This document shows, piece after piece, positions 10,702-27,679 of a stretch of DNA of 64,000 nucleotides (position 1 is its first letter; every line of letters starts with the position of its first letter). The notes beneath the pieces are model-generated. The model saw only the letters and a program-made list of their open reading frames with translations. It made no database searches and was not told where the DNA came from. The translations under genes and the position numbers were made by a program. The DNA lies in contig CAZFIB010000003.1 of NCBI GenBank assembly GCA_964518865.1, positions 10,520 to 74,519 of the forward strand, in the 5' to 3' direction. Source of the DNA: an uncultured Thermodesulfobacteriota bacterium (GTDB taxonomy: Bacteria > Desulfobacterota > WTBG01 > CAIYCZ01 > CAIRTM01).

Positions 10702-10780
10702 ACCTGTATACCTCCTTACTGCGTTATATGAAATGTATTAATTCTGTTTGCATATCACGAGTCGGCTAAAAAAACCGGCC

Positions 10781-12748: not shown

Positions 12749-13063
12749 TTAGCCCTCTCCTATCATCCGGCTGACTATAATCTTTGCAGCTGCCTGCACA
12801 TGGGCTTCGCCGCTTTCGGTGACGCTCCGTGCGCTTTCCCCGCCTTCCTTGACAATTGACTCAGCCTGTGCCTCAGCTTCAGCGCAGGCTTTTTGTATGA
12901 TTTCATCTGCCGTGCGTTCAGCCTCCTTTTCGGCGTCGGCAATGATCTGCTTTGCCTCGGATTCTGATTTTGCCAGCATATCGGCCGCTTTTTTCTTTGA
13001 CGCCTCTATGCGTTCCTGAACTTTCTGTTCGGCTTCCTTGATTTTTTTAAGGGAATCGATCAT
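12749..13063 (-). CDS. atpH: V/A-type ATP synthase subunit H (G-like stalk subunit)
   Basis: 104 aa charged helical protein (KE-rich). It is the first gene of the operon, immediately upstream of atpI. Confidence 0.6.
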   Translation of the reverse strand: MIDSLKKIKEAEQKVQERIEASKKKAADMLAKSESEAKQIIADAEKEAERTADEIIQKACAEAEAQAESIVKEGGESARSVTESGEAHVQAAAKIIVSRMIGEG

Positions 13064-13311
13064 CGATGCCTCCCAAAAGTGAACTGCGATGCTGTATGCT
13101 CCGGGTACACGTTAGTCAACAGCACGGTGACGTGCGGGTTCTAAGATTTACCTAAAAAACCGTATTAAATCAAGGACATTTTTAGCGTGGGTGTTTTTTT
13201 AAAACCAGTATAGTTTTTTATAGTCCTGTGTATAAAAAAATGTTAAAGTTTTCTAAACTATTCCTATAAATCATATGATTACTTGATATATTTTCAAAGC
13301 ATTCTGAAAGA

Positions 13312-16300
13312 ATGAGGTGCACTGATTCTATGATAACACAAACTGCAGGACACAGTTCTAAAGTCATAGGCAGACTTGCAATCATGCTCCTGCTGCTATG
13401 CCCGTCCGCGCACGGAGCAACGCTTGGCGTTCAAAAGGAGGGCGGCGCCTGCGACCCGAGCGGAACACCCTATTATTGCACAATCCAAAGCGCTCTTGCG
13501 GCTGCAAGCAACGGAGACACTGTATGCGTGTATGCAGCGACATCCACCGGCGCCTATGTCGAGGCGTTGACACTGACCAGGCAGGTTTCACTTGTCGGCA
13601 AAAAAAGTGACGGCAGCGATGCCTGGTCGGCGGGCCTTGCAGGCTCACTCAGCGGAGCACCGATCCTGACCATCACCGACACCTCTTCGTTTGCTTCTCA
13701 GCCGGTGGTGACGATAGGCGGGGCATCCGGAATCTCGATGCAGGGCCTTACCATTGACTCGCGCGGCTATCCCCTGACCTGCACCGCCATTACTTCGACC
13801 AGCTACGTATCGGTTACCTACTGCGATTTTCTAATGGGAGGAGATGCCGGAACCGACTGCGCGATCGGCGTGTATGACAATAACATTCCTGACAATATTA
13901 CCGTCACCTTTTGCAGGTTTGTCGGTCAGACAACCGGCACGGCCAACTGGTTTGCGGTTATGGGCGGTGCGGGGATAAGCTCCGTAACGCTTTCCTGCAA
14001 TCAGATAACGCGCACAAGCTCACTGCTCAGCCTTGGCAGTGCCGGCGACGTGCGTAATGTTCTCTACAACCGCAACACGTTTTACGGTACCGCGGGAGCC
14101 ATATTACTCAGTGATCCGCTCGGTGTGTCGGCAAAGGACTTTGCAAACATCCGTATCATTGACAACGAATTCGATGCAACCAATGAATATGCGGTTGTTG
14201 TAAGCAGTAACGTTGGCACAGATGATGCGGAAAACGGCGACTGGCGCTCGAACCTGGTTGTCAACAACAATGCCATCAAGACTTTGACGTCCTCAAGCTA
14301 CCCTGTCGTCGGTTTCGTCAGTTCCACGTTCAATATCACCCCGACCTATTATATGGACGCACAGCTGAACTGGTGGGGCGATCTGGACGGACCGGCGGAT
14401 GTTTCGTCCCGCGTGGATTACAGCCCCTGGATTGCCCAGGCGCAGGAGTACCGCACCGGCGGGGACCCGGCCTACTGGGGCACAAACGACAGCATTACCG
14501 ACGCCCTGGCGCAGGCCGGTGCAAACGACACGGTGTATGTGGTTGCCAAAGGCAGCCCCTTTGCCGAGTCGGTAACCGTGACGACCAGCCTGACCCTTAC
14601 GGGCAGAACAAGCGCGGGTGCGGACGCCTGGACCACCGGCACGGCCGGCGCCGCATCGGGAGCGCCGATTCTCGCTATTACGAATACGTCATTTTCAAAT
14701 CCCTTGATGCTTATTCGATCAACCGCAAACAATACGACTCTCAAAGGGTTTAAAATTAATACGGGTGGTGCTGTGGCACAGCAAATATCATGTACAACTT
14801 TTGGAGGCGCTGTAAGCAATGTTGATATTTCATATTGTGACTATGCGCTTGATGAAGGAGATAAAGCTATCGCTGTTGATTACGGAAACAGCATCAGCAA
14901 CCTTACTGCTACGTACAATACCTTCACCGGCCAAAATGACAATATTAGTAATTGGTTTTTTGTTGGCGAAAATGGGAGCGGAGGTGCAGTAAACAATGCA
15001 ATCCTTTCAAACAATTCAATAACAAATGCGATGTCAACGCTGCAGCTGAACAACTCAATTAAAAAAATACGTTATTCCAATAATACATTTAACAACAGCT
15101 GGGACGGGGGCGCAATTGCAACAAAAGCCGGGTATCTTCTTATTGAAGAACCTAACGATGACAATCCGAACATTATTCAAGGTATTACGATAACGCACAA
15201 CACCTTTAATAACGGTAATCCGGACACCGAGCCGAATGAATTCGGCGTTTTGATAGCAAATACCGTCGATCTTAATGAAACCGACTGGGAATCAAATCTT
15301 GCGATTCATTTCAATAATTTCCTTCAGGATGATGATAACGGAGGTTTCCCAATCGCAGGTTTTCAAACGGGTTCCCCGGATCATGCTAGCGAGATAACCG
15401 CGACAAAAAACTATTGGTCAGCGGCACCTAATGTGAGCAGCAACGGTATGGTTTCCGACAATGTGAAATATAACCCCTGGGTCAGAAGCGGAATCGATGG
15501 CGGATCCTATGCGGTACTCGGCGCCAACACAGTCGACTATATAACCGACACCACGAACGGCATTTACCTGACCGTCGAAACCGGTGCCGGTGGCGCGACC
15601 CTGCTGCCCACAAAATACGTCGGCAATCCCACCTCCACCTCACTGACAAGCGCGCAGGGGTATTTCGATCTCGGAATCAAGTCCGGCACAATCGATAAAA
15701 TAACCGCGACATTCACCTACTCCGGCAGCGACCCGAGCATCTCGAACCCGGCTGTCTGGTATAACGGCAGCACATGGGTTTCCTGCTCCAACCAGTCCCT
15801 CGATGCCTCGGCAAATGCGGTTACCGTTTACATCACCGACACAAGTCAGATTACGCCGACCATGAGCGATGTCGGAACCATTCACAATATAACACCCTCG
15901 ACCTTTTTCGCTCTCGCATTCTCGACAACCACAACGACAGCGCCCTCCACAAGCACATCATCGGCTGCGGCCACAACGACAAGCGTAACCGCCACATCCA
16001 CAACCACCTCAACCGGCGGCGGGGGAGGCAGCACGACAACGTCGACGAGCACCGTCCCGTCGACAACCACATCCGCGCTGCCTGATACCGCGAGCACGAC
16101 CACGATCGGGGTACCGCAGCTGAGCATAACGCCCGCTTCGCTCGAATTCGCCGACAATGAAAGCGCAAAGCAGCTCAGCATTGCCAATACCGGCACCGGA
16201 ACGCTCGACTGGTCGATCGACGACAATGCAACCTCGTATGCTGAGACAAGCGGATGGGTCTTCTCCGCGCGTCCCTCGACAGGACAGGTCATGGATACCC

Positions 16301-17064
16301 CTGATTCCGTCACCCTGACGGTCAGCCGCACGCTTCTGTCGCCGGGCACCTACAGTGCCGAAATCCCGGTCATGTCGAATGCCGGCGATGCCGACATCGA
16401 CGTGGAGATGGAAGTCGCCCGAAGCGAGCTTCCGATCATGTCCGTGCGGCCGCGCCTGCTTCTTTTCCTGCTGGACGATATCGACAACCAGACCATGACC
16501 GTGCGAAACCTTTTTTCAGGAACGCTTCTCTGGGAACTTGAGGACCCGATATATCACCGCGGTGAGGGGTGGCTCTCCTTCACGCCCTCATCGGGCTCTG
16601 TCCGGCGCGAAGCCGACACCGTTACCGTGAGCGTAACGCGGGATGCCATGTCGCCCGGACTGTACAGCGCAACCGTTCCCGTGCGCTCCAACTTCAACCG
16701 CCGGAACATCACGGTCGTCATGCTTGTGCAGGAAGGGCCCGACCTGCAGATCTCGCCGTCGCTTCTGTTTTTCGGCCGCAATGACGAAAATGAAAAAGAG
16801 GTGCTCCTCACGAATACCGGTTCGGGAATTGCGAACTGGACGATTGATTCGGATGCCATCGACTACCGGGGTGGCGACACGCCATGGGTGGTATCGGTAA
16901 GCCCTCTGTCGGGCTCCACCGAAACGCTTGAGGAGGACACCGTTACCGTTACCGTCAGCAGGGACTCTCTCGGTTTCGGCCTGTACCGTGCGATCATTCC
17001 GATAACATCGGCAAACGGCGGCGACAAAAAAATCAACGTGTATTTACTGGTACCGTTTTTGTAA
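13312..17064 (+). CDS. giant secreted surface protein
   Basis: Signal peptide, then two parallel beta-helix modules each ending in an NWWG..DGP motif, then a Thr/Ser-rich linker, then 3x DUF1573/BACON-like Ig domains. Confidence 0.8.
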   Translation: MRCTDSMITQTAGHSSKVIGRLAIMLLLLCPSAHGATLGVQKEGGACDPSGTPYYCTIQSALAAASNGDTVCVYAATSTGAYVEALTLTRQVSLVGKKSDGSDAWSAGLAGSLSGAPILTITDTSSFASQPVVTIGGASGISMQGLTIDSRGYPLTCTAITSTSYVSVTYCDFLMGGDAGTDCAIGVYDNNIPDNITVTFCRFVGQTTGTANWFAVMGGAGISSVTLSCNQITRTSSLLSLGSAGDVRNVLYNRNTFYGTAGAILLSDPLGVSAKDFANIRIIDNEFDATNEYAVVVSSNVGTDDAENGDWRSNLVVNNNAIKTLTSSSYPVVGFVSSTFNITPTYYMDAQLNWWGDLDGPADVSSRVDYSPWIAQAQEYRTGGDPAYWGTNDSITDALAQAGANDTVYVVAKGSPFAESVTVTTSLTLTGRTSAGADAWTTGTAGAASGAPILAITNTSFSNPLMLIRSTANNTTLKGFKINTGGAVAQQISCTTFGGAVSNVDISYCDYALDEGDKAIAVDYGNSISNLTATYNTFTGQNDNISNWFFVGENGSGGAVNNAILSNNSITNAMSTLQLNNSIKKIRYSNNTFNNSWDGGAIATKAGYLLIEEPNDDNPNIIQGITITHNTFNNGNPDTEPNEFGVLIANTVDLNETDWESNLAIHFNNFLQDDDNGGFPIAGFQTGSPDHASEITATKNYWSAAPNVSSNGMVSDNVKYNPWVRSGIDGGSYAVLGANTVDYITDTTNGIYLTVETGAGGATLLPTKYVGNPTSTSLTSAQGYFDLGIKSGTIDKITATFTYSGSDPSISNPAVWYNGSTWVSCSNQSLDASANAVTVYITDTSQITPTMSDVGTIHNITPSTFFALAFSTTTTTAPSTSTSSAAATTTSVTATSTTTSTGGGGGSTTTSTSTVPSTTTSALPDTASTTTIGVPQLSITPASLEFADNESAKQLSIANTGTGTLDWSIDDNATSYAETSGWVFSARPSTGQVMDTPDSVTLTVSRTLLSPGTYSAEIPVMSNAGDADIDVEMEVARSELPIMSVRPRLLLFLLDDIDNQTMTVRNLFSGTLLWELEDPIYHRGEGWLSFTPSSGSVRREADTVTVSVTRDAMSPGLYSATVPVRSNFNRRNITVVMLVQEGPDLQISPSLLFFGRNDENEKEVLLTNTGSGIANWTIDSDAIDYRGGDTPWVVSVSPLSGSTETLEEDTVTVTVSRDSLGFGLYRAIIPITSANGGDKKINVYLLVPFL

Positions 17065-17275
17065 GTACAGCTCTGGTGCCGAAAACGAACCTTCAGCTGC
17101 AGCGCACAAAGCCGGGCTGATCTCAGCGTGTCCGTCAATACTGATGTCATTCAGGTATCTGCCGGGCTCTCTGGGCAATTCACGGAAATTCATAGCCTGC
17201 CTGATCTTCAGATGTTTCCCGGACCCTGCGATCACGTCGCAGGGTGACATATCACCAAGAGCAATAAAGCGGGGC

Positions 17276-17395
17276 CAGAGCAATTTTCAATTTTTTGCAG
17301 CCGTTTTTTTGTCATTTCGACCGCAGGGGGAAATCGCTTCAGGAGCGTGCGCTTTCTCAGTCGCCGTGCTCCCTGAAAATGACAGAATGGCCTTG
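17276..17395 (-). repeat. structured ~110-nt intergenic repeat element, copy A
   Basis: Reverse complement is ~85% identical to copies at 43221-43330 and 48621-48740. It has nested inverted repeats (GTCATTTC.../...GAAATGAC) and a conserved flank 'CGGCTGCA...AAAATTGCTCTG'. Confidence 0.7.
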
Positions 17396-17483
17396 AGTAT
17401 TGTGAAAAATGGTTTAGTCCGGACGGTTTGAGCTGGTAACCGTGCCTGTTTTGTGTGATTTATACTGCATTATGATTGCACTG

Positions 17484-19340
17484 TCATGACAGGTTGATCT
17501 TCACCCTTCCGCGCGACTTGATGAGCGCGATGATGTGCTGTGCTTCTTCGAAATCGGGTTTTATGTGCAGCACGCGGTCGAAAACCTCAAGAGCTTTGTC
17601 ATTCATGCCGGCATTTGCATATGCCGCTCCCAGAATAAACAGCGCATTGAGGTTGTAGGGCTGACGGGAGACGACACGCTCGAGCACCTCAATACCCCTG
17701 TCGAGCCTGCCGGTCGTGATATGGGCCCGGCCGGCAGTCGTCAGCACATCCATTCTGTTTTCGTTGTAAGATATAGCTTTCAGTGCGTTTTGCAGAGCCG
17801 GTTCATTGCGGCCCGTGCGCTCCATACGCATGGCCGAATAAAAGTATTTTTCACAGTACAGGTCCTTGACCGCGTACCGGGCGTAGAAAGCTCCGCAGAC
17901 AAGCACAACTGCTGCAAGCGCTGCGGCAGCAGGCCGTGGAAACGACCGCTGCATAGATGCTCTGCCGGGACGCTGTCGCGTATACATACCGCTCAGCATA
18001 CCCAGATACACAAACAGCAGCAGCGGCGGCATGGAACGCTGAAAGGGAAAACTGAAAAAAGCGGTAACCCCGAGGGATACGATGCCGCACAGCAGACCTG
18101 CGGCGATTGCCTGTTCGGACCGGCTGCTGCCGGCCCTGATAATTTTCACGGCCGGATAAAAAGCCGACATAAACAGGAAAACAAACAGCAGCATACCCGG
18201 AAGGCCGAGCTCGACTGTCATCTGGACGTAATCATTGTGCGCCCGGCGTATCTGCTTTGTTTTATCGAATGCCCTGTCGAATTCACGGCTGTAAGTATAG
18301 CGTGGATACTGCAGCTTGAACGAGCCGGGACCGAACCCCGTGACAGGCCGGTCCAGTACCATATCAAAGCTGTTTTTCCAGATGGTGACCCGATAGACTG
18401 CGCTGGGGCCGAACATTTTTCCTATCTTATCTGGACGGCCTGCAGCTAAAAAATAGAAGCCCGCACACAGGATACATGCCAGCAAAGCAGTATAACCCGC
18501 ATAAACACGCCAATGCTGCCTGCGCACAACGGCGAGCAACATCACGGCGCTGCCCGCAGCAACGAGTACGGCAAGCCATGCAGCCCTGCAGTGCGTATAA
18601 TAAAGAAATACCAGTGAACACAGGACCAGCGCCACGGCTGACATGCGACGGATGGTTTTGTGCGTAAGAAAAGCGGCCGCTGTTAAGACGGGAAGTGTTA
18701 TGGCAAGATACTGCGCAGCCATATTGGGGTTTGCAAAAACAGCCGCCGGGGACTCCCGCAGCGGCACAACCTGCAAACCGAACAGCTGCTGGCACAGTCC
18801 AAGCAGCACGACCCCTGCCCCGGCAAGTATGATAACCGCACAAAATCGTCTGAGCCATCCGGCCTGTTCGGCACACATAACGGTAAAAAAATAAGCAAGT
18901 CCGCATGCCGACCAGTGCAGTGCAGCGTACAGGCCCTCGTAGTGATTATTCGACCACAGCAGCTGCACAAGGGACCACACTATAAAAAGAGCCGCCAAGA
19001 TATCGACCAGATTGGAGCTTATGATGACCCTCCCGGCAATACAGCGGCGCACAGCCCATACAAGAGCCATAAAAAACATACACAGCTGTATGAAATAGCG
19101 CTGCGGCATATCCGCAAAATTGCTCAACCCCTTAATAAACACAAACGGAGCAAAGAGCAGCACACCGCACATAAGTATGCCCGAAACTCCCAGCAGTCGG
19201 GAATCCCACATCTGCGCGGCAAGTCCCAGAGTTTGATACACTTCGGAAACCGCAACATCAAGCTCAGCTGCGATCTGCTCCGGGGACCGGCCGGGATAAC
19301 TTTTTTTTATCTGTTTTATCTGCTTACTGGAGAGCTGCAT
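17484..19340 (-). CDS. O-antigen ligase family (Wzy_C) polytopic membrane protein with C-terminal TPR repeats
   Basis: 'RRAHNDYVQMTVELGLPG' is the Wzy_C signature. It has ~10-12 TM helices and C-terminal TPRs. Its start lies 3 nt after the stop of the upstream PQQ gene. Confidence 0.75.
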   Translation of the reverse strand: MQLSSKQIKQIKKSYPGRSPEQIAAELDVAVSEVYQTLGLAAQMWDSRLLGVSGILMCGVLLFAPFVFIKGLSNFADMPQRYFIQLCMFFMALVWAVRRCIAGRVIISSNLVDILAALFIVWSLVQLLWSNNHYEGLYAALHWSACGLAYFFTVMCAEQAGWLRRFCAVIILAGAGVVLLGLCQQLFGLQVVPLRESPAAVFANPNMAAQYLAITLPVLTAAAFLTHKTIRRMSAVALVLCSLVFLYYTHCRAAWLAVLVAAGSAVMLLAVVRRQHWRVYAGYTALLACILCAGFYFLAAGRPDKIGKMFGPSAVYRVTIWKNSFDMVLDRPVTGFGPGSFKLQYPRYTYSREFDRAFDKTKQIRRAHNDYVQMTVELGLPGMLLFVFLFMSAFYPAVKIIRAGSSRSEQAIAAGLLCGIVSLGVTAFFSFPFQRSMPPLLLFVYLGMLSGMYTRQRPGRASMQRSFPRPAAAALAAVVLVCGAFYARYAVKDLYCEKYFYSAMRMERTGRNEPALQNALKAISYNENRMDVLTTAGRAHITTGRLDRGIEVLERVVSRQPYNLNALFILGAAYANAGMNDKALEVFDRVLHIKPDFEEAQHIIALIKSRGRVKINLS

Positions 19341-19343
19341 AAC

Positions 19344-20375
19344 TCAGTTCAAACGAACACCCCTGACATAGTATTTTGCAGCGACTATTGCTTTTTCGCG
19401 TTGTATAATAATAAATCTACCCGGCGGCAGCATCGTCGTCTCCTGCTCCTTACCTGAGTCGGCATTAATTTTATAAAGACGGCCGCTGATATCTTTTACA
19501 AAAACACTTCCGGCATGCACTACCGGAGGCACAAGCCATGCCGGTCTGGCAGTTGCAAATGTCCAGAGTACGGTCCCGTATTCTGCATCATAACAATGCA
19601 GTTCACCCGCCGCCACATACAGCCTGTTCCCATAAAAAAGCGGTTTTGCAAATACAGGCCACTGAAGCTTTTTTTCCCATACAATATGACCGGTTTTTAC
19701 ATTGATTCCGAGCAAATATTTTTCCATTGTGGCAACGAATGCCGTTTGGTTTGTTGCGACAAGTACTGTAAGTCGCACGTCGTTTTCAATTCTCCAAAGC
19801 TGCTTGCCGTTAGATCCGTCATAACAGCTTAAAGCGCCCTGAGCAGCCACAAGAACGTCTGTGCCGGCCGCTGCCAGCAATATGCGTCCGCTGTCTGTCC
19901 TGACCGTCCAATGCCGGTGTCCGGTGTCGGAACTAAGACAATAGAGTTTCGATTGTATTACAATATACACAAATTCGTCCATCACTACCGGCTGTGATAC
20001 ACTCCAGTCATCGCCCCAGAAATCCCATTGCAGTTCTCCGGTGAGAGCGTCAAGGCAATACAGGCCGCCGCTCTGGAAGTAGACCCGCCCATTGTGCACA
20101 ACCGGCTTTGAAGGAGACAGCCCAAAAGGCTTAAAGGTCCAGAGCAGGCTGCCGTCCGCCGCATTAAAACAATAAATCCGGTCACTGCTGACATAAACGT
20201 TCGAATTGTTGTCTGTCGCAAGCAGCACCTGAGGAAAGCCGGTACGAAACTTCCATGCATAGTTGACTGTATCTTCGAGACAACCCGCGGAAACGATGAT
20301 AAAAACAATCAAGCAGACTGCTTTAAGCATTTTAGATTGAAATAGACAAAACGTTTGCACAATATTCTTTTTCAC
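19344..20375 (-). CDS. PQQ-repeat beta-propeller lipoprotein (BamB-like)
   Basis: Repeated 'G.LY..D...G...W' propeller blades and a lipobox (…VSAGC). The true start may be the internal ATG at ~20330 (MLKAVCLIVF...). Confidence 0.75.
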   Translation of the reverse strand: MKKNIVQTFCLFQSKMLKAVCLIVFIIVSAGCLEDTVNYAWKFRTGFPQVLLATDNNSNVYVSSDRIYCFNAADGSLLWTFKPFGLSPSKPVVHNGRVYFQSGGLYCLDALTGELQWDFWGDDWSVSQPVVMDEFVYIVIQSKLYCLSSDTGHRHWTVRTDSGRILLAAAGTDVLVAAQGALSCYDGSNGKQLWRIENDVRLTVLVATNQTAFVATMEKYLLGINVKTGHIVWEKKLQWPVFAKPLFYGNRLYVAAGELHCYDAEYGTVLWTFATARPAWLVPPVVHAGSVFVKDISGRLYKINADSGKEQETTMLPPGRFIIIQREKAIVAAKYYVRGVRLN

Positions 20376-20442
20376 AATTTAGATAAAAAAGCGTTTGGTT
20401 TGCAATCCGTGCAAAACAGTTTATAGCGACGATTTCGGAAAG

Positions 20443-20483
20443 TCAAAAACAAACAAAAAGCCCGGCTGCAGTACAGCCGGGCT
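20443..20483 (-). terminator. Rho-independent terminator downstream of giant surface protein 2
   Basis: On the minus strand: AGCCCGGCTG-tactg-CAGCCGGGCT (10-bp GC stem, 5-nt loop) followed by TTTTTGTTTGTTTTT. Confidence 0.7.
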
Positions 20484-20531
20484 GATGGTTCAATAAAGGG
20501 TTTCGCTGCCCCTCTTCGACAGCACCAAAAC

Positions 20532-23500
20532 TTATCTGAAAAACAGCGGGACAAATATGATGACTGTTATTTCCTCATCACCGCCGTTCGACGTGACCGG
20601 CACAACCGCGCGGTGAAAGCCCGGCCGCAGGCTGCTTCGGTCGACACTGATCGTAATGGTTTCTTCACTCTCTTCACCGCTGACGGTACCGCTGTCTGAA
20701 TTGAAGCTTATCCAGTCGCTGCCGCGCCAGCCGTACTGAATGTCGCCGATACTCCACTCCAGAATACCGGTTCCCGCATTCTGAACTGCACACTGCGTTT
20801 CCGACACATTGCGGCGCATAAAGCAGAACGTCCGGCCGAGAGAAAGACGTGGCTCGCCCGTCGGAGGAGGTGCAGGTTCTTCCTCCTGGACGGTCAGAGT
20901 AACAGTTATATCCTTGCTGTCGGAGCCGTCTCGAAGTGCAAGTGTTATAATGGCATTGTATGTGCCCTGGTCCAAACCCTGACGGTCGACCGACACGGTC
21001 ATATCCATGCTGTCGCCCGGAGCAAGAGAGATGATGTTGGCATCCGTGCTGAGCCAGCCGCTGACGTCCGCGTACAGCGTTTCAACATACCAGGTCCCGT
21101 CCGCATCGCCCCGGTTCGTAACCGTAACCGTGGATTGCTCCTGCATCTCGAATGACGTGAATTCAAGGCTGCCTGAGCTGATCTCTACAGCCGGAGCAAG
21201 CGGAACATAGACATCACCCACACCAAGGCGCACGAGAACCGAGTCGGAGCCGCCGCTGGATGTTATGGGGAGATAGGCCTCGTAAATTCCCTCGCTCAAA
21301 CCGTCCCGGTTTACGTAGATGGTGACAATCTGCGTACCGGTACCGCTCGGGGGCTGAATCGACTCGATCCACCCGCTGCCGTCGAGGTACTGGGGGGTCC
21401 CGATGCTCCAGGTGAGGGTGCCGCCGCCGCTGTTGCCGATGGCGATAAAGCGGTCGTCGACGTCTTCAGGGAATCCGATATAGCCGTCCACATCTAGTAC
21501 CGGCGTCGTTGTGGAGCCGCCGCCTCCGCCGGTAGTGCCGCCACCGGTAGTGCCGGAATCGTCGTCATCGCCCGACGATGATCCTTCCATTGCGCCGGCA
21601 CCGAAGTAGGTTCCGCCGAGCTGTTCGATGGACGGGCTGCTGCTGTCTGTAATGACAACCTGCAGACAGTTGCCGACGCTTATTGCTGCCGGGTCGGTCG
21701 GTTTCCATTCGCCGGTATCACCGTTGAACCACATGACCGTATCGCCGCCGCTGCCGCAGATTTCGATTGTTATACTTGTCAACCCGTCAGGATCGGGGAC
21801 AAAAATATCGACATACTTTGCACCGGCCTTCAGCCCGCTGGACTTCCCGGTCGGTGTGCCGCTGTAGCTTGCAGCCATTATTTTGGCCGATCCCTCTACT
21901 TCAAGATTGACACCCGGCACCACGTCCGAGGCGCTGCTGCCGTTCATTTCCATCATGACAACCGAGCCTTCAAACGGACTTTCAAGGTGAGGAGAGAAGC
22001 AAACCAGGCCGCTGACGGATGCACCGCTGCCGGCAGCGGTTTTTCCCGCCGTGCAGTTGTCGGCCGTGTCGCCCGACGGACCGTCCTCAGCACCCCACCA
22101 GTTGTTGCGGGCATCCACGTGCTCGGTTCCGCTGTGCTCCAACCCAACCGGAACTGCAGGTTTGCATATATCCTCATTCTGGTCAGGATTGTACGTAGAC
22201 GGGCAGTTGTCGTCGTCATCCGCTATGCCGTCGCAGTCGGTATCATCAAGCGTAACCGTCTCTTCCTCGGGTGTTGACGGTATTGTTACGTTGCAGTTGC
22301 TGCCGCATGCATCGCCGATTCCGTCATCATCTGAATCCCGCTGATCGGGATTATAAACGTAAGGACAATTGTCATCACATGCTTCTGTCTCACCCTCCGC
22401 ACAGGCAACATCGCCGACGATACCGTTTTGGTCGCCGTCATCCGCTATGCCGTCGCAGTCGGTATCATCAAGCGTAACCGTCTCTTCCTCGGGTGTTGAC
22501 GGTATTGTCACTGTGCAGTTCTCCTGCACACCACCCTCCCCCGGAGTAAACTTGATGTTGTTGAAACTGATCTGCGTACCGTTGACATCATCGACGACAA
22601 AAGCTTTTTGATAGGTGCCGCTATCCATATCAATGGTCAGGCCGAGGATGGTGGCATTTTCCGCACGTATAGAAATCGCGGTGCTGTTCTCTGCAGGCAC
22701 ACCGTTTATAACCGGTGCAGCACCTTCGGCTGCCTTTATCGTCAGATTGGCAACATCAATCGCAAAACCGTCATAATCGCCGGTTTGAAGCTCAATAACC
22801 TTTTCTTCTTCGGGCGGAAGGGCGGCAAAAGCCGTAATGACATCGTTGATAGTTGCATACCCTGATCCGCCGCCCCCTGGACTGAAAAGAATGCTGTTGC
22901 TGTCATCACAGGTATCGCCGCGACCATCCTGGTCCGCATCATTTTGATCTTCGTTGTCCGTGTACGGACAGTTATCGCAGGCATCACCACGAGTGTCACC
23001 GTCACTGTTTGCCTGATCGCCATTTGCAATATCCGGACAGTTGTCACACGCATCACCGATAGTGTCATTATCAAAATCCAACTGATCGGCATTCGCGGTA
23101 TTCGGGCAATTGTCGCAGGCATCACCTACATCGTCACCGTCAAAGTCGGCCTGGGATGTATTGTTATCATACTGGCAGTTGTCGCACGCATCACCGATAG
23201 TGTCATTATCGAAATCCAACTGATCGGCATTCGCGGTATTCGGGCAATTGTCTTCTCCATCCTCAATACCGTCATTATCATCATCATCGTCACAGATATC
23301 GCCGATACCGTCGCCGTCGCTGTCACCGATATCGGGTGCAAATGAAGTAAATGCGGCGTCTTTGGCATAGGGATAAAAGCTCAGATTGGCGCTGACGCCC
23401 ATGACGGCAAGTTCACCGCCGGACCCGTCAGCAGCAGGGGTGCAGCCCAGAAAAGATTCGGAATTGTTAATTCCTCCTGACGGTCCGTCATCGGCTCCCC

Positions 23501-24254
23501 ACCAGTTATACCGCATATCTATGGCAGGCGGATTGTTTGTTGACAAATACTGCCCGAAAGCATGTCCCGCGTAATCAGGATTTCCTTCCCAGGCACTGCT
23601 GTTGTCGTTACCGCTCAAATCATTATATTGTATGAACAATTTCGGGACGTTACCGTAGACCCCGATCCCGCGGTGGTTGCCGGTAATACTGTTTTTCATA
23701 GAAATGTCGCCACCAATAAATATCCAGGACGAACTGGACCCGTTAATAAAAATACCGTAACCGTAGTCCGGGTGTTTGGTAGCATTATCTGGCGCAAAGC
23801 CGGCTATGGTATTATTTCTAATTGCAATGGAAGACCCGGAGTTGATAAAAATGCCGCAATCAGAACCGGTAATGGTAAAACCTTGGAGTGTTGTTAGACT
23901 TCCGGGAGGAGTCTGAATAAATACTGATGCGTATATATCAAGTATGTCAAGTGGAGAAATACCTGACTCGGGGGAAATCTGCTCTCCTTCGATAACCGGT
24001 GCAGCCCCGTCTGCAGCCTTGATGGTCAATCCCTGTTTCCAGATGATAAAACCGTCATAACTGCCGTCAGCCACCTCGATGGTAGAACCGGGGGCCGACA
24101 GATTTATCGCACTTTGAATGTCTAAAAAGTCGGCTGCACCTGTGGCGTTATCGTCATCCACCAGCAACGTGGCGGATTGCGCATTAGCATTAGAAATACA
24201 GACTGCATATGCCAGTAGTGCTATGAATAAACCGTGCATCCATGAAACTTTCAT
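20532..24254 (-). CDS. giant secreted Ca-binding surface protein
   Basis: Signal peptide (…ISNANAQS), then beta-helix modules with NWWG..DGPS motifs, then ~10 TSP3 repeats (DxDxDGxGDxCDNCPxxxNxDQ), then a Gly/Ser/Thr linker, then 3x DUF1573/BACON-like domains. Confidence 0.85.
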   Translation of the reverse strand: MKVSWMHGLFIALLAYAVCISNANAQSATLLVDDDNATGAADFLDIQSAINLSAPGSTIEVADGSYDGFIIWKQGLTIKAADGAAPVIEGEQISPESGISPLDILDIYASVFIQTPPGSLTTLQGFTITGSDCGIFINSGSSIAIRNNTIAGFAPDNATKHPDYGYGIFINGSSSSWIFIGGDISMKNSITGNHRGIGVYGNVPKLFIQYNDLSGNDNSSAWEGNPDYAGHAFGQYLSTNNPPAIDMRYNWWGADDGPSGGINNSESFLGCTPAADGSGGELAVMGVSANLSFYPYAKDAAFTSFAPDIGDSDGDGIGDICDDDDDNDGIEDGEDNCPNTANADQLDFDNDTIGDACDNCQYDNNTSQADFDGDDVGDACDNCPNTANADQLDFDNDTIGDACDNCPDIANGDQANSDGDTRGDACDNCPYTDNEDQNDADQDGRGDTCDDSNSILFSPGGGGSGYATINDVITAFAALPPEEEKVIELQTGDYDGFAIDVANLTIKAAEGAAPVINGVPAENSTAISIRAENATILGLTIDMDSGTYQKAFVVDDVNGTQISFNNIKFTPGEGGVQENCTVTIPSTPEEETVTLDDTDCDGIADDGDQNGIVGDVACAEGETEACDDNCPYVYNPDQRDSDDDGIGDACGSNCNVTIPSTPEEETVTLDDTDCDGIADDDDNCPSTYNPDQNEDICKPAVPVGLEHSGTEHVDARNNWWGAEDGPSGDTADNCTAGKTAAGSGASVSGLVCFSPHLESPFEGSVVMMEMNGSSASDVVPGVNLEVEGSAKIMAASYSGTPTGKSSGLKAGAKYVDIFVPDPDGLTSITIEICGSGGDTVMWFNGDTGEWKPTDPAAISVGNCLQVVITDSSSPSIEQLGGTYFGAGAMEGSSSGDDDDSGTTGGGTTGGGGGSTTTPVLDVDGYIGFPEDVDDRFIAIGNSGGGTLTWSIGTPQYLDGSGWIESIQPPSGTGTQIVTIYVNRDGLSEGIYEAYLPITSSGGSDSVLVRLGVGDVYVPLAPAVEISSGSLEFTSFEMQEQSTVTVTNRGDADGTWYVETLYADVSGWLSTDANIISLAPGDSMDMTVSVDRQGLDQGTYNAIITLALRDGSDSKDITVTLTVQEEEPAPPPTGEPRLSLGRTFCFMRRNVSETQCAVQNAGTGILEWSIGDIQYGWRGSDWISFNSDSGTVSGEESEETITISVDRSSLRPGFHRAVVPVTSNGGDEEITVIIFVPLFFR
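22211..22508 (-). repeat. intragenic near-identical ~78-bp direct repeats (2 copies, ~220 bp apart)
   Basis: The same 78-nt string (…gtcatccgctatgccgtcgcagtcggtatcatcaagcgtaaccgtctcttcctcgggtgttgacggtattgt) occurs at ~22211 and ~22431. It encodes NVTIPSTPEEETVTLDDTDCDGIADD twice. Confidence 0.85.
23043..23251 (-). repeat. intragenic near-identical ~72-bp direct repeats in TSP3 region (2 copies, ~137 bp apart)
   Basis: 70/72 identical copies at ~23043 and ~23180. They encode DNCPNTANADQLDFDNDTIGDACDNC. Confidence 0.85.
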
Positions 24255-24276
24255 GGTTCTTCCCCCCTCTTAGTCT

Positions 24277-24603
24277 TTAGTTATCCATCATGCCGCCGTG
24301 CGGCATTATTTTATGATCGCCGAACTTTACGGCAATTCCGTCCGCATCACAGCGAACAACGGTACCTGTTACTTTTATGCAACCTTTATGCCCTGTCATG
24401 TCAAACAAAGTTGAATTATCGAGAATAATTTCCACCCGTACCTTCGTCCCCACATCGAACGGCCGGCTGGTGGTCAGAAATGCACCCCCGGCACTGATAT
24501 CACGGGTGGCGAGCTGCATACTGTCAAAGCCGTTGAGCATGGTCGCCGGAAAATTAACATCGAACCGTTGATGCTCGCGCTTGTTTTCAATGGTCTGCTG
24601 CAT
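24277..24603 (-). CDS. PilZ domain protein (c-di-GMP receptor)
   Basis: RxxxR (REHQR) and DxSxGG (DISAGGAF) motifs. It lies 22 nt upstream of giant protein 2, which has a GAGGGGGGA RBS. Confidence 0.75.
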   Translation of the reverse strand: MQQTIENKREHQRFDVNFPATMLNGFDSMQLATRDISAGGAFLTTSRPFDVGTKVRVEIILDNSTLFDMTGHKGCIKVTGTVVRCDADGIAVKFGDHKIMPHGGMMDN

Positions 24604-24881
24604 GGGTGCTGCCTTTTATTAAATCGATACCTGAATAAATTTATATTTTGTTAGTTTACAGTTAAAATTATACCATTCAAACCTGAACATAGGCAATCAC
24701 CCTAAGGTATGATTTTGCTTCGTATTTTTTCAGTGCTCATGCAAGAGACATATACGAAAAAAGTATTAAATAAAAATAAGCTTGTATAATTCCTGTTAGA
24801 GACAAAATGTTGCTGCCTGCATGAAAACCGGATACGGAACAAGACGCGGGGAAGGGAGGATAATATATTTATAAAGTAAAA

Positions 24882-25553
24882 TCAGAGGTTTTTGGCTGCC
24901 CACAGGGTGGCCTGCAGGCGGTTGGCAACATTGATCTTTTTATAGATATTGTAAAGATGTGTTTTGATAGTATGAGGACTGACACACAGCTTGTCGGCGA
25001 TTTCCTCATTCTTGCGTCCGATCGCCACGTGCGAAAGTATTTCTATTTCACGCTGCGTCAAAATTTTTCTGACTTTTATGCCGCTTATGTCCTCGTCGCG
25101 GTCTTCGAGAATATACCTGGTCATAACATCGCGGGTGAACCAGAGTTCCTGATTATATAAAGCCGTAATGCCCTTTATAAACAGGTCGGTGTCGGTATCC
25201 TGATAAAAAATACCCCGCACGCCATGTCCCATGCAGCTTTCTTCGATACCCAGTCCCGGCTTGACATTGAACAGCGCAACCACGGAGGCATCAGTCACTT
25301 CACAGATTGATGCAAGCAGGCCGGACATGAAATCGTCCATGGTCTTACCCATACAGTCCCAGAGATAAAGTTCGCTTTCAAACTGTTTTCTTTTTTCCTG
25401 GGATAGTACACTGATATCCTTGATACAGGTACATGACGCCCCTGTTTCAGTCTCGATAAGACTTCCGAGGGCCTGACTGCTCAAAATGTGTGCGCCTACG
25501 ATAAAAATGGTGTGTCCCGCCAGAACTTTGCCTGCCTGTACGTCGTTTTTCAT
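24882..25553 (-). CDS. CsgD-family transcriptional regulator (LuxR-type HTH)
   Basis: Alignable along its whole length with E. coli CsgD. This covers both the N-terminal receiver-like domain and the C-terminal LuxR HTH (LTQREIEILSHVAIGRKNEEIADKL…TIKTHLYNIYKKI). Confidence 0.8.
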   Translation of the reverse strand: MKNDVQAGKVLAGHTIFIVGAHILSSQALGSLIETETGASCTCIKDISVLSQEKRKQFESELYLWDCMGKTMDDFMSGLLASICEVTDASVVALFNVKPGLGIEESCMGHGVRGIFYQDTDTDLFIKGITALYNQELWFTRDVMTRYILEDRDEDISGIKVRKILTQREIEILSHVAIGRKNEEIADKLCVSPHTIKTHLYNIYKKINVANRLQATLWAAKNL

Positions 25554-25805
25554 ATCGTACCCTGAATATATCTGACGTGAAGCGGTAATAAATATGTGTG
25601 ACAGTCTAATACTTTACAACAAAACAAAAAATTATACAATTGATTATTTTCAATAACTTTAAATAATTTTATAAAAAAAGATATCTATGGCAAACCTTCC
25701 GGTAAGGAAAGAAACTGCAAATCGCTGTATTATTATTTTCTGACTACAGCAGTATAAGGTATAATACGTATCAGACAATTCAAAACAACCTATGAGGTGA
25801 ATTAA

Positions 25806-26822: not shown

Positions 26823-27679
26823 CCGCATCAGCCGACGCCAGAACCATTGTTTTCATTCTCTCGACCAACTATGCGGGCTCCCACTTTCTCTCGCTCATGC
26901 TCGGGAGCAACCCCGGAGCCCGGCACATCGGAGAGGCAAAAGCGTTCAGGAAAAAAAAGCGAAATCCCGGAAAAACTTACTGCAGCCTGTGCGGCAGCGA
27001 AGATCGCTGCCCGCTGTTCAGAAGCGTGACCCCGGACACTATCAGGGATATTTTTGATATTATTTTCACAAACGCGCCGGCCGGTACCGAGGTGCTTGTC
27101 GACATATCCAAAAAACCGTTCTGGGCCCAACGTTTCCTGCACGACAGCCGCTACCACAAAAAGTATATCCACCTTGTCCGGGACCCGCGGGCCCTGATAC
27201 GACGCTGGATTCTGACCTATGACGGCCGTCACCTCTCTCAGCGCTTCAAGGCAGTCCGTTCACGCCCCTCAAAGTGTATTCCTCTGATGCTGCGCGGGTT
27301 GTGGTATGTATATCTGTATAAATGGCTGATACAAAACCGTGAAATAACGGCGTTCCTGAGAGAACATGCACCGGCATACCGGATCGTTACCTATCGGGAT
27401 CTTGCAATCGAAACGGAACGAACCCTCAGTGACATTACGGAGTGGATCGGCCTTGATTTCCGGCGCGATCAGCTCGAATACTGGAAGTTCGAGCATCACG
27501 GCACACAAAAAAGGGGGTATGACCGGGTGCGTCAGGACGGACGATCATATTTCGACGACCGATGGAAGGACTTTCTCTCACCCGAAATAAAAAAGGCAAT
27601 AACAGAAAACGGCAGTATACTGGCCTACCTCCGTGAACAGGGCCTGGTTTTTACGGAAAAAGGTCTTACCTGCGCATAG
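26819..27679 (+). CDS. sulfotransferase-family-like protein
   Basis: The 5'-PSB-like segment ILSTNYAGSHFL and the 3'-PB-like motif LVRDPRALIRRW match the sulfotransferase signature. It has an ATGA overlap with the upstream kinase gene. Confidence 0.45.
   Translation: MTASADARTIVFILSTNYAGSHFLSLMLGSNPGARHIGEAKAFRKKKRNPGKTYCSLCGSEDRCPLFRSVTPDTIRDIFDIIFTNAPAGTEVLVDISKKPFWAQRFLHDSRYHKKYIHLVRDPRALIRRWILTYDGRHLSQRFKAVRSRPSKCIPLMLRGLWYVYLYKWLIQNREITAFLREHAPAYRIVTYRDLAIETERTLSDITEWIGLDFRRDQLEYWKFEHHGTQKRGYDRVRQDGRSYFDDRWKDFLSPEIKKAITENGSILAYLREQGLVFTEKGLTCA

What the first reader, a model, noticed from the sequence alone, without database searches (positions are those of the whole stretch)
13312..25553. 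Candidate c-di-GMP/CsgD-controlled surface-matrix island: two giant paralogous adhesin-like proteins flanking a Wzy_C(PglL-like?)-TPR membrane protein and a BamB-like lipoprotein
Reading 24.6 kb to 17.5 kb on the minus strand, the order is CsgD homolog, PilZ, giant protein 2 (terminator), PQQ beta-propeller lipoprotein, Wzy_C-TPR protein. Giant protein 1 is encoded convergently on the plus strand. Both giants share a modular plan: beta-helix modules ending in N(W/Y)WG..DGP, Ser/Thr/Gly-rich linkers, and 3 C-terminal DUF1573/BACON-like Ig domains. Protein 2 adds ~10 calcium-binding TSP3 repeats. PglL and PilO, the protein O-oligosaccharyltransferases, belong to the same Wzy_C family as the embedded ligase-like gene. 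No LPS core genes are nearby. I infer this may be a self-contained system that exports, possibly O-glycosylates, and anchors giant Ca-binding adhesins under c-di-GMP/CsgD control.
Basis: partly seen in the sequence, partly recalled or inferred. Interest (0 to 1): 0.8.

Follow-up and report, generated by a model that had tools for sequence, protein, structure and literature searches.

The report
c-di-GMP-linked surface-protein and glycan-ligase gene block
An uncultured sulfate-reducer-type bacterium carries a conserved gene block that pairs a WaaL/PglL-type sugar-chain ligase and its lipoprotein partner with two large secreted beta-helix proteins and two c-di-GMP sensors. The genes are real and recur in related genomes, but whether the ligase sugar-coats those proteins is still only a plausible guess.

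Summary
On the minus strand lie a LuxR-type regulator, a PilZ protein, a 1240-aa secreted protein (two beta-helix modules, about 10 TSP3 repeats, three BACON-like domains, then a strong terminator), a beta-propeller lipoprotein and a Wzy_C+TPR membrane protein. A convergent 1250-aa protein has two beta-helix modules, a Ser/Thr linker and three BACON-like domains.

The block recurs. Nine diverged Thermodesulfobacteriota loci carry the ligase beside the V-ATPase operon. Eight of them face a G1 orthologue, five have a G2-like protein, three have PilZ and two have the regulator.

The propeller-ligase pair also sits beside Tol-Pal in at least 12 further loci with no such proteins nearby. So it is a separable core, not a dedicated adhesin tool.

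The ligase has the WaaL fold, is nearest to IctB by HMM and lacks the PglL_A signature. It does have an extra transmembrane helix and a periplasmic TPR domain, which puts it in the PglL/PglS size class. O-glycosylation of the conserved Ser/Thr linkers is plausible (about 0.3) but untested. Nothing supports "export" or "anchoring".

The regulator is VpsT-like, not CsgD: its WFTR aligns with VpsT's WLTR. PilZ has both binding motifs.

I rate it a new variant of known kinds, of moderate interest.

The parts
24882..25553 (-). VpsT-type LuxR-family regulator: degenerate receiver domain plus GerE HTH. Carries WFTR at about aa 138-141.
   Evidence: GerE E 2.3e-19; VpsT-like_REC 23.5 bits against a cut-off of 27. 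CsgD model 109 bits against 250. Best PDB relative is VpsT 3KLN, E 2.6e-25, with ELWFTR aligned to EMWLTR. The L009 orthologue has WFSR.
24604..24881 (-). AT-rich (33% GC) intergenic region upstream of PilZ-G2, with a promoter-like site (TTGCCT-18-TATAAT with a TG extension).
   Evidence: Consensus match only.
24277..24603 (-). Single-domain PilZ c-di-GMP receptor, 22 bp upstream of G2 with a strong Shine-Dalgarno sequence between them (probably co-transcribed).
   Evidence: PF07238 E 2.5e-14. RxxxR (REHQR) and DxSxxG (DISAGG) are present. Orthologues in L009 and L010 keep both motifs. Spacing.
20532..24254 (-). G2: Sec-signal secreted protein. Beta-helix module 1, TSP3 array, beta-helix module 2 (with TSP3-like inserts), Gly/Ser/Thr linker, three BACON-like domains.
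22875..23357 (-). G2 acidic Cys-containing TSP3-type (calcium-binding) repeat array, aa ~300-460. The DNA shows a 69-nt period.
   Evidence: TSP_3 E 1.4e-16. Regex and sequence. Direct repeats D1.
20459..20483 (-). Intrinsic-terminator-like hairpin after G2. It separates PilZ-G2 from the propeller-ligase unit.
   Evidence: 11-bp stem, 8 GC pairs, T-run.
19344..20375 (-). PQQ_2 beta-propeller lipoprotein. The likely start is M16, giving lipobox VSAGC. It ends 3 nt before the ligase start codon.
   Evidence: PQQ_2 E 4e-44. BamB models far below cut-off. Called as 328 aa in public data. Adjacent to the ligase in about 20 loci.
17484..19340 (-). Wzy_C-superfamily glycan ligase: N-terminal HTH-like cytoplasmic domain (aa 1-42), about 12 TM helices, an extra TM helix (aa ~469-490) and a periplasmic TPR domain (aa ~495-610).
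   Evidence: Wzy_C E 9.8e-26. AF2 pLDDT 85. WaaL 7TPG is the top fold match, E 9.5e-6, TM-score 0.65 normalised to the target. Family alignment with invariant R252, R317 and H368-N-D.
13312..17064 (+). G1: Sec-signal secreted protein (public call starts at M7). Two beta-helix modules, beta-sandwich region, 65-aa poly-Ser/Thr linker, three BACON-like domains.
15919..16116 (+). G1 Ser/Thr-rich linker (aa ~870-935). It is conserved as a feature, 60-100 aa long, in the G1 orthologues of the four related loci examined.
   Evidence: L002, L004, L006, L010.
16114..17061 (+). G1 C-terminal triple BACON-like Ig module. This is the only region homologous to G2.
   Evidence: BLASTP 32% identity, E 6e-34. 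Relatives carry PF19190 BACON_2.

Best explanation
Two separable modules lie side by side.

Module 1 (core). A translationally coupled pair: a periplasmic beta-propeller lipoprotein and an inner-membrane Wzy_C-superfamily enzyme. The enzyme has the WaaL fold with an IctB-like core, plus an extra transmembrane helix that places a TPR domain in the periplasm. It most likely takes an undecaprenyl-diphosphate-linked glycan and transfers it in the periplasm to an acceptor that the TPR domain and the propeller help to present.

Module 2 (accessory, present in one subclade). Genes for Sec-exported proteins built from right-handed beta-helix modules (polysaccharide-binding or polysaccharide-cutting folds). 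G2 also carries calcium-binding TSP3 repeats. A Ser/Thr-rich linker and a shared triple BACON-like C-terminal module follow. The G2 operon starts with a PilZ c-di-GMP receptor and lies downstream of a VpsT-type regulator that probably binds c-di-GMP directly. High c-di-GMP would therefore switch on matrix and surface protein production, as VpsT does in Vibrio.

The link between the modules. My best single guess is that the ligase acts as a broad-specificity protein O-oligosaccharyltransferase and that the Ser/Thr linkers of G1 and G2 are among its substrates.

What is shown: gene content, folds, sequence motifs and synteny. What is inferred: the donor, the acceptor, the regulation and any glycosylation.
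For: Anatomy.

The ligase:
- AF2 model with pLDDT 85. The N-terminal 3-helix domain, 12+1 TM helices and positively charged 457-468 loop imply that the TPR domain is periplasmic.
- WaaL 7TPG is the only solved relative.
- At 618 aa with a C-terminal periplasmic domain, it matches the PglL/PglS size class. For that class the literature suggests the extra domain helps recognise protein sequons (PMC9829042; PMC12645811).
- There is a near-full-length but sub-threshold Wzy_C_2 match.

Conservation:
- The pair is conserved in about 20 loci.
- A G1 orthologue lies convergent to the ligase in 8 loci, despite only 40-46% protein identity and turnover of the flanking genes.
- The 60-100-aa Ser/Thr linker is kept in the G1 orthologues of the four related loci examined.
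- Variable passenger regions share the BACON-like C-terminus.

Folds and regulators:
- Beta-helix fold matches include PL6 alginate lyases, pectin methylesterases and V. cholerae RbmB.
- The VpsT WLTR/WFTR alignment, and R134 as a c-di-GMP-binding residue (PMC3359988).
- PilZ motifs.
- A terminator separates the transcription units.
Against: - The PglL_A signature is absent in 0 of 16 family members, and Wzy_C_2 is found in only 4 of 16, all sub-threshold.
- The nearest HMM is IctB, a family of unknown function (58 bits against a cut-off of 366).
- The pair occurs in at least 12 loci next to Tol-Pal with no Ser/Thr-linker proteins within 10 kb. This fits a housekeeping envelope role such as O-antigen ligation equally well.
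- All G-containing loci share one chromosomal position beside the V-ATPase operon, so vertical inheritance can explain part of the co-occurrence.
- A G1-like gene occurs without a nearby ligase.
- No shared operator was found upstream of the four transcription units.
- A PMT_2 (GT-C) glycosyltransferase about 20 kb away is an alternative enzyme for Ser/Thr-linker glycosylation.
Confidence: 0.4

Rival explanations
1. Housekeeping glycolipid ligase. The Wzy_C-TPR protein with its propeller lipoprotein is this lineage's WaaL-type enzyme, attaching O-antigen or another polymer to lipid A-core or another envelope lipid. The large beta-helix proteins and the c-di-GMP receptors are merely neighbours: independently acting matrix enzymes or adhesins.
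For: - The only solved homologue and top fold match is WaaL.
- PglL_A is absent.
- The pair is conserved beside Tol-Pal, without G proteins, in at least 12 loci.
- A terminator and a separate promoter-like site split G2 from the pair.
- Distant relatives sit next to an ABC-2 permease and a WecA-like GT4, as in ABC-dependent O-antigen pathways.
Against: - Canonical WaaL is about 400 aa with 12 TM helices and no extra domain (established knowledge; target length 403). This protein has an N-terminal domain, a 13th TM helix and a TPR domain.
- No LPS-core or O-antigen genes lie in the annotated flanks.
- The G1 orthologue stays adjacent at 40-46% identity while other flanking genes turn over.
Confidence: 0.3
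2. Exopolysaccharide machinery. The Wzy_C-TPR protein is a polymerase or scaffold of a c-di-GMP-activated polysaccharide pathway. Its TPR domain and the propeller lipoprotein guide the polymer across the periplasm, as the TPR domains of BcsC, AlgK and PelB do. G1 and G2 are the pathway's secreted lyases or epimerases, and PilZ is the post-translational switch.
For: - Wzy_C also covers Wzy polymerases (PMC4594306).
- TPR domains guide polymers in synthase-dependent systems, and PilZ activates such systems (PMC12220298).
- The beta-helix fold matches are alginate lyases, RbmB and the AlgE epimerase.
- A sulfotransferase and a PgmG-like mutase lie on the right flank.
Against: - There is no glycosyltransferase, flippase, Wzz/Wzc, Wza or outer-membrane porin gene in or beside the block.
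- The Tol-Pal-adjacent loci also lack them, as far as they were compared.
- PilZ is co-transcribed with G2, not with the ligase.
Confidence: 0.12
3. One reading: a self-contained five-gene system that exports, O-glycosylates and anchors giant calcium-binding adhesins under CsgD and c-di-GMP control.
For: - The five gene families are adjacent in the window.
- A G2-like protein recurs in L002, L009, L010 and L017.
- PilZ recurs in L009 and L010, and the regulator in L009.
- TSP3 repeats and Ser/Thr linkers are present.
Against: - No export or sorting component is present, and the propeller is not BamB.
- The pair exists without the large proteins, and a G1-like gene exists without the pair nearby.
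- L009 lacks the propeller and G1; L004 and L006 lack G2, PilZ and the regulator.
- The regulator is VpsT-like, not CsgD.
- The beta-helix fold is as typical of polysaccharide-active enzymes as of adhesins.
Confidence: 0.08

Closest known systems
PglL / PglS O-oligosaccharyltransferases (Neisseria, Acinetobacter)
   Same: Wzy_C core. About 550-620 aa, with an additional C-terminal periplasmic domain. The gene lies outside LPS loci and next to genes for secreted proteins with low-complexity Ser/Thr regions.
   Different: The PglL_A signature is absent in 0 of 16 members and Wzy_C_2 is only sub-threshold. The C-terminal domain is a canonical TPR array. There is an N-terminal HTH-like domain and an obligate-looking propeller lipoprotein partner. 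No pilin-type substrate is present.
WaaL O-antigen ligase (Cupriavidus metallidurans, PDB 7TPG)
   Same: The only solved relative: profile E 7.5e-10 and Foldseek E 9.5e-6 with TM-score 0.65 normalised to the target. Invariant Arg/His residues lie in the Wzy_C loop.
   Different: About 200 aa longer, with a 13th TM helix, a TPR domain and an N-terminal domain. Only 18% identity. It is not in an LPS cluster.
IctB family (TIGR00947, cyanobacteria; function unknown)
   Same: Best-scoring named HMM, matching nearly its full length (model positions 39-393 of 425). The family-invariant FANPN motif resembles the IctB-group 'NPNL' pattern.
   Different: Scores 58 bits against a cut-off of 366. IctB has neither the TPR domain nor the propeller partner, as far as is known (my knowledge).
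Vibrio cholerae VpsT and its vps/rbm matrix regulon
   Same: The regulator's best solved relative is VpsT, and the c-di-GMP-binding tetrad position is conserved (WFTR against WLTR). Its likely targets include secreted matrix-type proteins, and the beta-helix lyase RbmB is among the fold matches to G1.
   Different: A different phylum. No vps-like polysaccharide genes lie nearby. c-di-GMP binding and the target genes are untested.
BamB (outer-membrane assembly lipoprotein)
   Same: PQQ_2 beta-propeller lipoprotein fold.
   Different: Fails the BamB equivalog models (90 against 285 bits, and 70 against 423). It is about 330 aa against about 390. Its constant genomic partner is the ligase, not the Bam or der genes.
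Two-beta-helix polysaccharide lyases (PL6 AlyGC type), pectin methylesterases and autotransporter-type beta-helix adhesins
   Same: Tandem right-handed beta-helix modules. They are secreted.
   Different: No sequence-level family membership: no Pfam hit for G1 and only 6 relatives among 5.8 billion sequences. Catalytic residues were not identifiable. There is no autotransporter barrel.

Membership tests
PglL/PglS-class O-oligosaccharyltransferase | Wzy_C (PF04932) domain | tested here: met
   E 9.8e-26, model positions 2-149 of 149. Present in 16 of 16 family members.
PglL/PglS-class O-oligosaccharyltransferase | PglL_A signature (PF15864), which distinguishes PglL from WaaL (PMC3643930) | tested here: not met
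   No hit at E<=1 in any of the 16 family members. The equivalent region (aa 418-439) lacks the H..E.P pattern.
PglL/PglS-class O-oligosaccharyltransferase | Wzy_C_2 (PF11846) C-terminal periplasmic domain | tested here: inconclusive
   25.6 bits against a cut-off of 28.5, covering model positions 18-183 of 191. Only 4 of 16 members match at E<=1. The match may simply reflect TPR-like helices.
PglL/PglS-class O-oligosaccharyltransferase | Transfers an Und-PP-glycan to Ser/Thr of proteins | not testable with these tools
   Needs reconstitution or glycoproteomics.
WaaL O-antigen ligase | WaaL fold with conserved Arg/His in the periplasmic loop | tested here: met
   7TPG is the top fold match and the top non-TPR profile match. 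R252, R317 and H368 are invariant; their equivalence to E. coli R215, R288 and H338 is inferred, not aligned.
WaaL O-antigen ligase | About 400 aa, 12 TM helices, no accessory domains | tested here: not met
   618 aa with an N-terminal 3-helix domain, a 13th TM helix and a TPR domain.
WaaL O-antigen ligase | Encoded with LPS core or O-antigen genes | tested here: not met
   The flanks are the V-ATPase operon, PfkB kinase, sulfotransferase, PgmG and Nuo/Mrp genes. This feature is not universal for WaaL.
IctB family (TIGR00947) | Score above the curated cut-off | tested here: not met
   58.1 bits against 366.4.
VpsT-type c-di-GMP-binding LuxR regulator | GerE HTH plus a VpsT-like receiver domain | tested here: inconclusive
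   GerE is met (E 2.3e-19). VpsT-like_REC scores 23.5 bits against a cut-off of 27. The best PDB relative is VpsT, E 2.6e-25, but the alignment covers only aa 110-222.
VpsT-type c-di-GMP-binding LuxR regulator | W[F/L/M][T/S]R c-di-GMP-binding tetrad. The motif definition is from my knowledge of Krasteva et al. 2010, which is not held in the library. R134 is confirmed as a binding residue in PMC3359988. | tested here: met
   WFTR aligns column for column with VpsT WLTR, and the following Y-I-L (I141 dimer contact) is also conserved. The L009 orthologue has WFSR.
CsgD (NF007505 equivalog) | Score above the curated cut-off | tested here: not met
   109.5 bits against 250.
PilZ c-di-GMP receptor | PF07238 domain with RxxxR and (D/N)xSxxG motifs | tested here: met
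   E 2.5e-14. REHQR and DISAGG are present and conserved in L009 and L010.
BamB | TIGR03300 / NF008351 equivalog score | tested here: not met
   90 against 285 bits, and 70 against 423 bits.
BACON-type Ig domains | PF19190 (BACON_2) match | tested here: met
   G2 scores 39.3 bits against a cut-off of 25. G1 has no direct Pfam hit, but its module is homologous to G2's (E 6e-34) and its database relatives carry PF19190.
Thrombospondin type-3 calcium-binding repeats | PF02412 match and DxDxDGxxDxxD-type motifs | tested here: met
   E 1.4e-16. About 10 motif copies. Calcium binding itself is not testable here.

The most novel reading that the evidence does not exclude
The Wzy_C + 13th-TM + periplasmic-TPR enzyme and its beta-propeller lipoprotein partner form a previously undescribed class of bacterial protein O-oligosaccharyltransferase. 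It would be PglL_A-negative with an IctB-like core. In one Thermodesulfobacteriota subclade its cis-encoded substrates would be mucin-like Ser/Thr linkers of secreted beta-helix matrix proteins. The enzyme's cytoplasmic N-terminal HTH-like domain would dock the neighbouring PilZ protein, so that glycosylation itself is gated by c-di-GMP. If so, this would also give a first functional handle on the large, uncharacterised Wzy_C-TPR / IctB-like family, which has 340 cluster representatives at E<=1e-30.
Probability: 0.15. Interest if true: 0.75.

Novelty: new variant of a known kind. Interest (0 to 1): 0.45.

Why it matters
Wzy_C-superfamily enzymes cannot be sorted into lipid-directed ligases (WaaL) and protein-directed ligases (O-OTases) from sequence. 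O-OTases are also sought as tools for making glycoconjugate vaccines.

This locus offers a compact, testable case: a ligase with a periplasmic TPR domain, a fixed lipoprotein partner, and next-door candidate substrates with conserved Ser/Thr linkers.

If the enzyme is an O-OTase, it defines a new class and sheds light on hundreds of uncharacterised Wzy_C-TPR / IctB-like proteins. If it is a WaaL, it shows an unusual accessory architecture for LPS maturation in Thermodesulfobacteriota.

The VpsT-type regulator with an intact c-di-GMP tetrad also extends this receptor type well beyond Vibrio.

Tried and rejected
- **First genome scan.** Scanning genome contigs with the single ligase protein found nothing. 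The alignment-based scan worked.
- **Unavailable resources.** The afdb50 fold library was not available. The Krasteva 2010 paper is not held, so the motif definition rests on my knowledge plus PMC3359988.
- **Solved structures.** A single-sequence search with the ligase's TM part found nothing; only the family profile reaches WaaL. G1 has no sequence relative among solved structures.
- **Shared operator.** A search of the four AT-rich upstream regions found only promoter-like AT-rich matches.
- **The propeller as BamB.** Rejected: the scores are far below the equivalog cut-offs, and its constant partner is the ligase.
- **A T9SS-like attachment system.** Weak PorZ and PorW hits (E about 1e-3) were rejected as generic propeller and TPR similarity. 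No CTD or Por genes are present.
- **PEP-CTERM / exosortase system.** PEP_O_lig_1 scores 47 bits against a cut-off of 188 and PrsT 30 against 312. Rejected: there is no PEP-CTERM tail, and the proteins end ...VPFL / ...VPLFFR.
- **LapA-type or RTX giant adhesins.** Rejected: the proteins have Sec signal peptides, are only about 1250 aa, and have no T1SS genes nearby.
- **PfkB as the LPS-heptose kinase RfaE.** Rejected: rfaE_dom_I scores 46 bits against a cut-off of 345, and the best hits are other sugar kinases.
- **The conserved C-terminal ...VPF(L/F) ending as a sorting signal.** Not pursued: it looks like the end of the last beta-strand, and L010's upstream protein lacks it.

Full report
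**Observation**

Pfam and NCBIfam confirm almost every domain call.

- 17484-19340(-) is a 618-aa Wzy_C protein (E 9.8e-26) with C-terminal TPR repeats.
- 19344-20375(-) is a PQQ_2 beta-propeller (E 4e-44). Its likely start (M16, as in the public gene call of 328 aa) gives the lipobox VSAGC.
- 20532-24254(-), 'G2', carries TSP_3 repeats (E 1.4e-16) and a BACON_2 domain.
- 24277-24603(-) is a PilZ protein.
- 24882-25553(-) is a GerE-type regulator with a degenerate receiver domain.
- 13312-17064(+), 'G1', has no Pfam family.

A strong terminator hairpin (11-bp stem, 8 GC pairs, T-run) follows G2 at 20483-20459(-), and a promoter-like site precedes the propeller gene. PilZ ends 22 bp before G2, with a strong Shine-Dalgarno sequence between them. 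The propeller gene ends 3 nt before the ligase start. The likely transcription units are therefore [regulator], [PilZ-G2], [propeller-ligase] and [G1].

**The two large proteins**

Both have Sec-type signal peptides.

They are significantly similar only over the last ~320 aa, a triple Ig-like module (32% identity, E 6e-34). Database relatives of this module carry PF19190 BACON_2.

The N-terminal parts share an architecture rather than alignable sequence. Each has two modules that end in N(W/Y)WG..GP. G2 also keeps a 48-nt DNA repeat between its two modules.

An AF2 model of G1 aa 35-854 has mean pLDDT 62, but the two modules reach 70-90. Its significant PDB matches are right-handed beta-helix proteins: PL6 alginate lyases (which also have two tandem helices), pectin methylesterases, the V. 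cholerae matrix lyase RbmB and phage tailspikes.

So 'beta-helix' is confirmed, but the fold is at least as typical of polysaccharide-active enzymes as of adhesins.

G2 carries about 10 acidic, Cys-containing TSP3-type repeats, encoded partly by a 69-nt-period DNA array.

G1 has a 65-aa poly-Ser/Thr linker just before the BACON module. G2 has a shorter Gly/Ser/Thr linker.

G1's N-terminal part has only six relatives among 5.8 billion sequences. At 1240-1250 aa these proteins are large, not giant.

**The ligase**

A family alignment of 16 orthologues (37-47% identity) shows invariant R252, R317 and H368-N-D inside the Wzy_C region, and an invariant FANPN loop.

The AF2 model (pLDDT 85) shows a cytoplasmic N-terminal three-helix bundle (aa 5-38), about 12 TM helices, a basic loop (aa 457-468), a 13th TM helix and then the TPR array. 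This places the TPR domain in the periplasm (the topology is inferred).

The only solved relative of the membrane core is WaaL 7TPG: profile E 7.5e-10, and Foldseek E 9.5e-6 with TM-score 0.65 normalised to the target.

The best named HMM is IctB (58 bits against a cut-off of 366), followed by the exosortase-associated putative O-glycosylation ligase (47 against 188).

The literature gives a practical discriminator. PglL and PglS O-OTases carry PglL_A (PF15864) and Wzy_C_2 (PF11846); WaaL, TfpO and TfpM do not (PMC3643930; PMC12645811). Here PglL_A is absent in all 16 members. Wzy_C_2 is sub-threshold (25.6 bits against 28.5, though nearly full-length) and is seen in only 4 of 16.

The protein therefore cannot be filed as PglL/PglS. 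It also fails the simple WaaL architecture. Its size and extra periplasmic domain resemble PglL/PglS, for which that domain has been proposed to recognise protein sequons (PMC9829042).

A whole-library phmmer search finds 340 cluster representatives at E<=1e-30. Many are matched from the TM core through the TPR domain, so the Wzy_C+TPR architecture is widespread and uncharacterised.

**Co-occurrence**

Exact-protein look-ups and two alignment-based scans gave 38 loci. I compared them by tblastn. All identifiable sources are Thermodesulfobacteriota ('Deltaproteobacteria') MAGs, apart from distant Acidobacteriota relatives.

- *Pair.* The propeller gene sits immediately upstream of the ligase in about 20 loci. 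It is missing only in L009 and in the distant relatives L014, L029 and L031.
- *Group A.* Here the ligase lies beside the V-ATPase operon: the window, L002, L004/5, L006/11, L009, L010, L017, L023 and L032.
  - A G1 orthologue lies convergent to the ligase in 8 of these 9, at 40-45% identity.
  - A G2-like protein lies upstream in 5 (window, L002, L009, L010, L017). Its passenger region varies (NosD helix plus MopE/CTDC repeats in L009; a ConA-like domain in L010), but it keeps the BACON-like C-terminus.
  - PilZ is present in all 3 loci where the sequence reaches that far (window, L009, L010).
  - The regulator is present in 2 (window, L009).
  - The flanks turn over: ETF genes replace G2 in L004, L006 and L023, and an ICMT-like membrane protein is inserted in L004 and L010.
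- *Group B.* This covers at least 12 loci, including L007, L012, L013, L015, L024-L028, L030, L033 and L034, plus the more distant L020/21 and L035. The pair lies upstream of a convergent CpoB-Pal-TolB-TolA-TolR-TolQ operon, with leuCDB on the other side in the core loci. No G-type protein lies within 10 kb. Most of these ligases lack the N-terminal 42-aa domain.
- *Stray G1.* A G1-like gene also occurs elsewhere with no ligase nearby (L038).

It is confined to one syntenic subclade, however, and the propeller-ligase pair is clearly a separable core.

**Regulators**

The regulator misses the CsgD equivalog cut-off (109 bits against 250). Its best solved relative is VpsT (E 2.6e-25). Its ELWFTRDVMTRYIL aligns with VpsT's EMWLTRKLAQEYIL.

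That stretch contains the tetrad that binds c-di-GMP in VpsT. R134A abolishes binding and I141 mediates dimerisation (PMC3359988). The W[F/L/M][T/S]R definition is from my knowledge of Krasteva et al. 2010. The L009 orthologue has WFSR.

PilZ carries RxxxR and DxSxxG, conserved in L009 and L010. A REC-GGDEF cyclase lies 19 kb away.

The targets are inferred from position only; I found no shared operator.

**Mechanism**

I read the region as two modules.

- *Core module.* The ligase takes an Und-PP-linked glycan and transfers it in the periplasm. The TPR domain and the propeller lipoprotein act as acceptor-presenting or bridging parts.
- *Accessory module.* c-di-GMP-induced secreted beta-helix proteins bind or remodel matrix polysaccharide. 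G2 is calcium-dependent. Their triple BACON module serves as a common spacer or glycan-binding foot.
- *Link between them.* The most attractive link, though unproven, is O-glycosylation of the conserved Ser/Thr linkers.

I put about 0.3 on protein O-glycosylation, about 0.3 on a WaaL-type glycolipid ligase, and about 0.12 on a polymerase or export-scaffold role. The rest is unknown (an IctB-like function). Nothing in the block exports or anchors proteins.

**Verdict**

All components belong to known kinds. The specific combination (Wzy_C + TPR + propeller partner + adjacent Ser/Thr-linker proteins + a VpsT-type receptor) did not turn up in the four full-text paper searches I ran. I rate it a new variant of a known kind, with interest 0.45.

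Noticed in passing
window 19215-19340 (-), aa 1-42 of the Wzy_C-TPR protein: A conserved cytoplasmic N-terminal three-helix, HTH-like domain (LSxKQIKQIKKxYPxKSxxQIAxEL...YKxLGL) is fused to the membrane ligase. Only sub-threshold HTH Pfam hits were found (for example sigma-70 r4, GerE, HTH_23, HTH_38 in several of the seven orthologues tested). The domain is absent from most Tol-Pal-adjacent orthologues. It could be a DNA-binding or PilZ-docking module.
   Followed up: partly
L004 12969-14795, L005 6567-8393, L010 11950-13848: A 608-632-aa protein with a weak ICMT-like (isoprenylcysteine carboxyl methyltransferase) C-terminus is inserted next to the G1 orthologue: between the ligase and G1 in L010, and beyond G1 in L004/5. 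The two versions are 57% identical. No trace of it is in the window.
   Followed up: partly
window 43540-47257 (-): A REC-GGDEF diguanylate cyclase, a methyltransferase and a 545-aa PMT_2-family (GT-C, ArnT/Pmt-like) glycosyltransferase lie in a row about 20 kb from the block. They offer a local c-di-GMP source and an alternative enzyme for Ser/Thr-linker (or lipid A) glycosylation.
   Followed up: no
L014 7180-15134 and L029 1-10773: Distant Wzy_C-TPR homologues (28-30% identity; Acidobacteriota; duplicated in tandem in L029) are flanked by an Slr4-like S-layer protein, an ABC-2 (Wzm-like) permease, an FAD oxidoreductase and a WecA-like GT4. This context is reminiscent of ABC-dependent O-antigen or S-layer glycosylation loci.
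   Followed up: partly
L007, L013, L015, L024-L028 (about 4000-18500 in each): A very stable arrangement is found in a second clade: SPOR protein, leuC-leuD-leuB, propeller lipoprotein, Wzy_C-TPR, then a convergent CpoB-Pal-TolB-TolA-TolR-TolQ operon, an aminotransferase and a small cytidylyltransferase-like gene. The neighbouring genes are 80-95% identical between loci, while the ligases are only 34-41% identical to the window's.
   Followed up: yes
window 22209-22520 and 22962-23274: G2 contains recent internal DNA duplications. One is a 90-nt segment repeated at 96% identity 222 nt apart (encoding CNVTIPSTPEEETVTLDDTDCDGIADD). The other is a 69-nt-period array of four TSP3 units. Repeat-number variation is possible.
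   Followed up: partly
window 25806-29356: The right flank encodes a PfkB-family sugar kinase (not RfaE by score), a sulfotransferase-family protein whose start overlaps the kinase's stop, and a PgmG-like phosphogluco/phosphomannomutase. The PfkB gene is also near the regulator in L009. These could supply or modify sugars, but no link was tested.
   Followed up: partly
L010 3727-5223: In L010 two FG-GAP-repeat proteins, rather than a LuxR regulator, precede the PilZ gene. The protein after PilZ has a ConA-like (3-keto-disaccharide hydrolase family) domain, two Ser/Thr/Pro linkers and a single BACON-like domain.
   Followed up: no
window 13064-13311, 20376-20531, 24604-24881, 25554-25805: All four upstream intergenic regions are strongly AT-rich (29-44% GC against about 55% for the window). 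The PilZ and regulator upstream regions share an extended -10-like TGGTATAATTT / TTGTATAATTT.
   Followed up: partly
L038 8899-11653: A G1-like gene is split into 366-aa and 550-aa ORFs, either by a frameshift or by a long-read assembly error. It lies next to xerC-hslVU with no ligase within 10 kb.
   Followed up: partly
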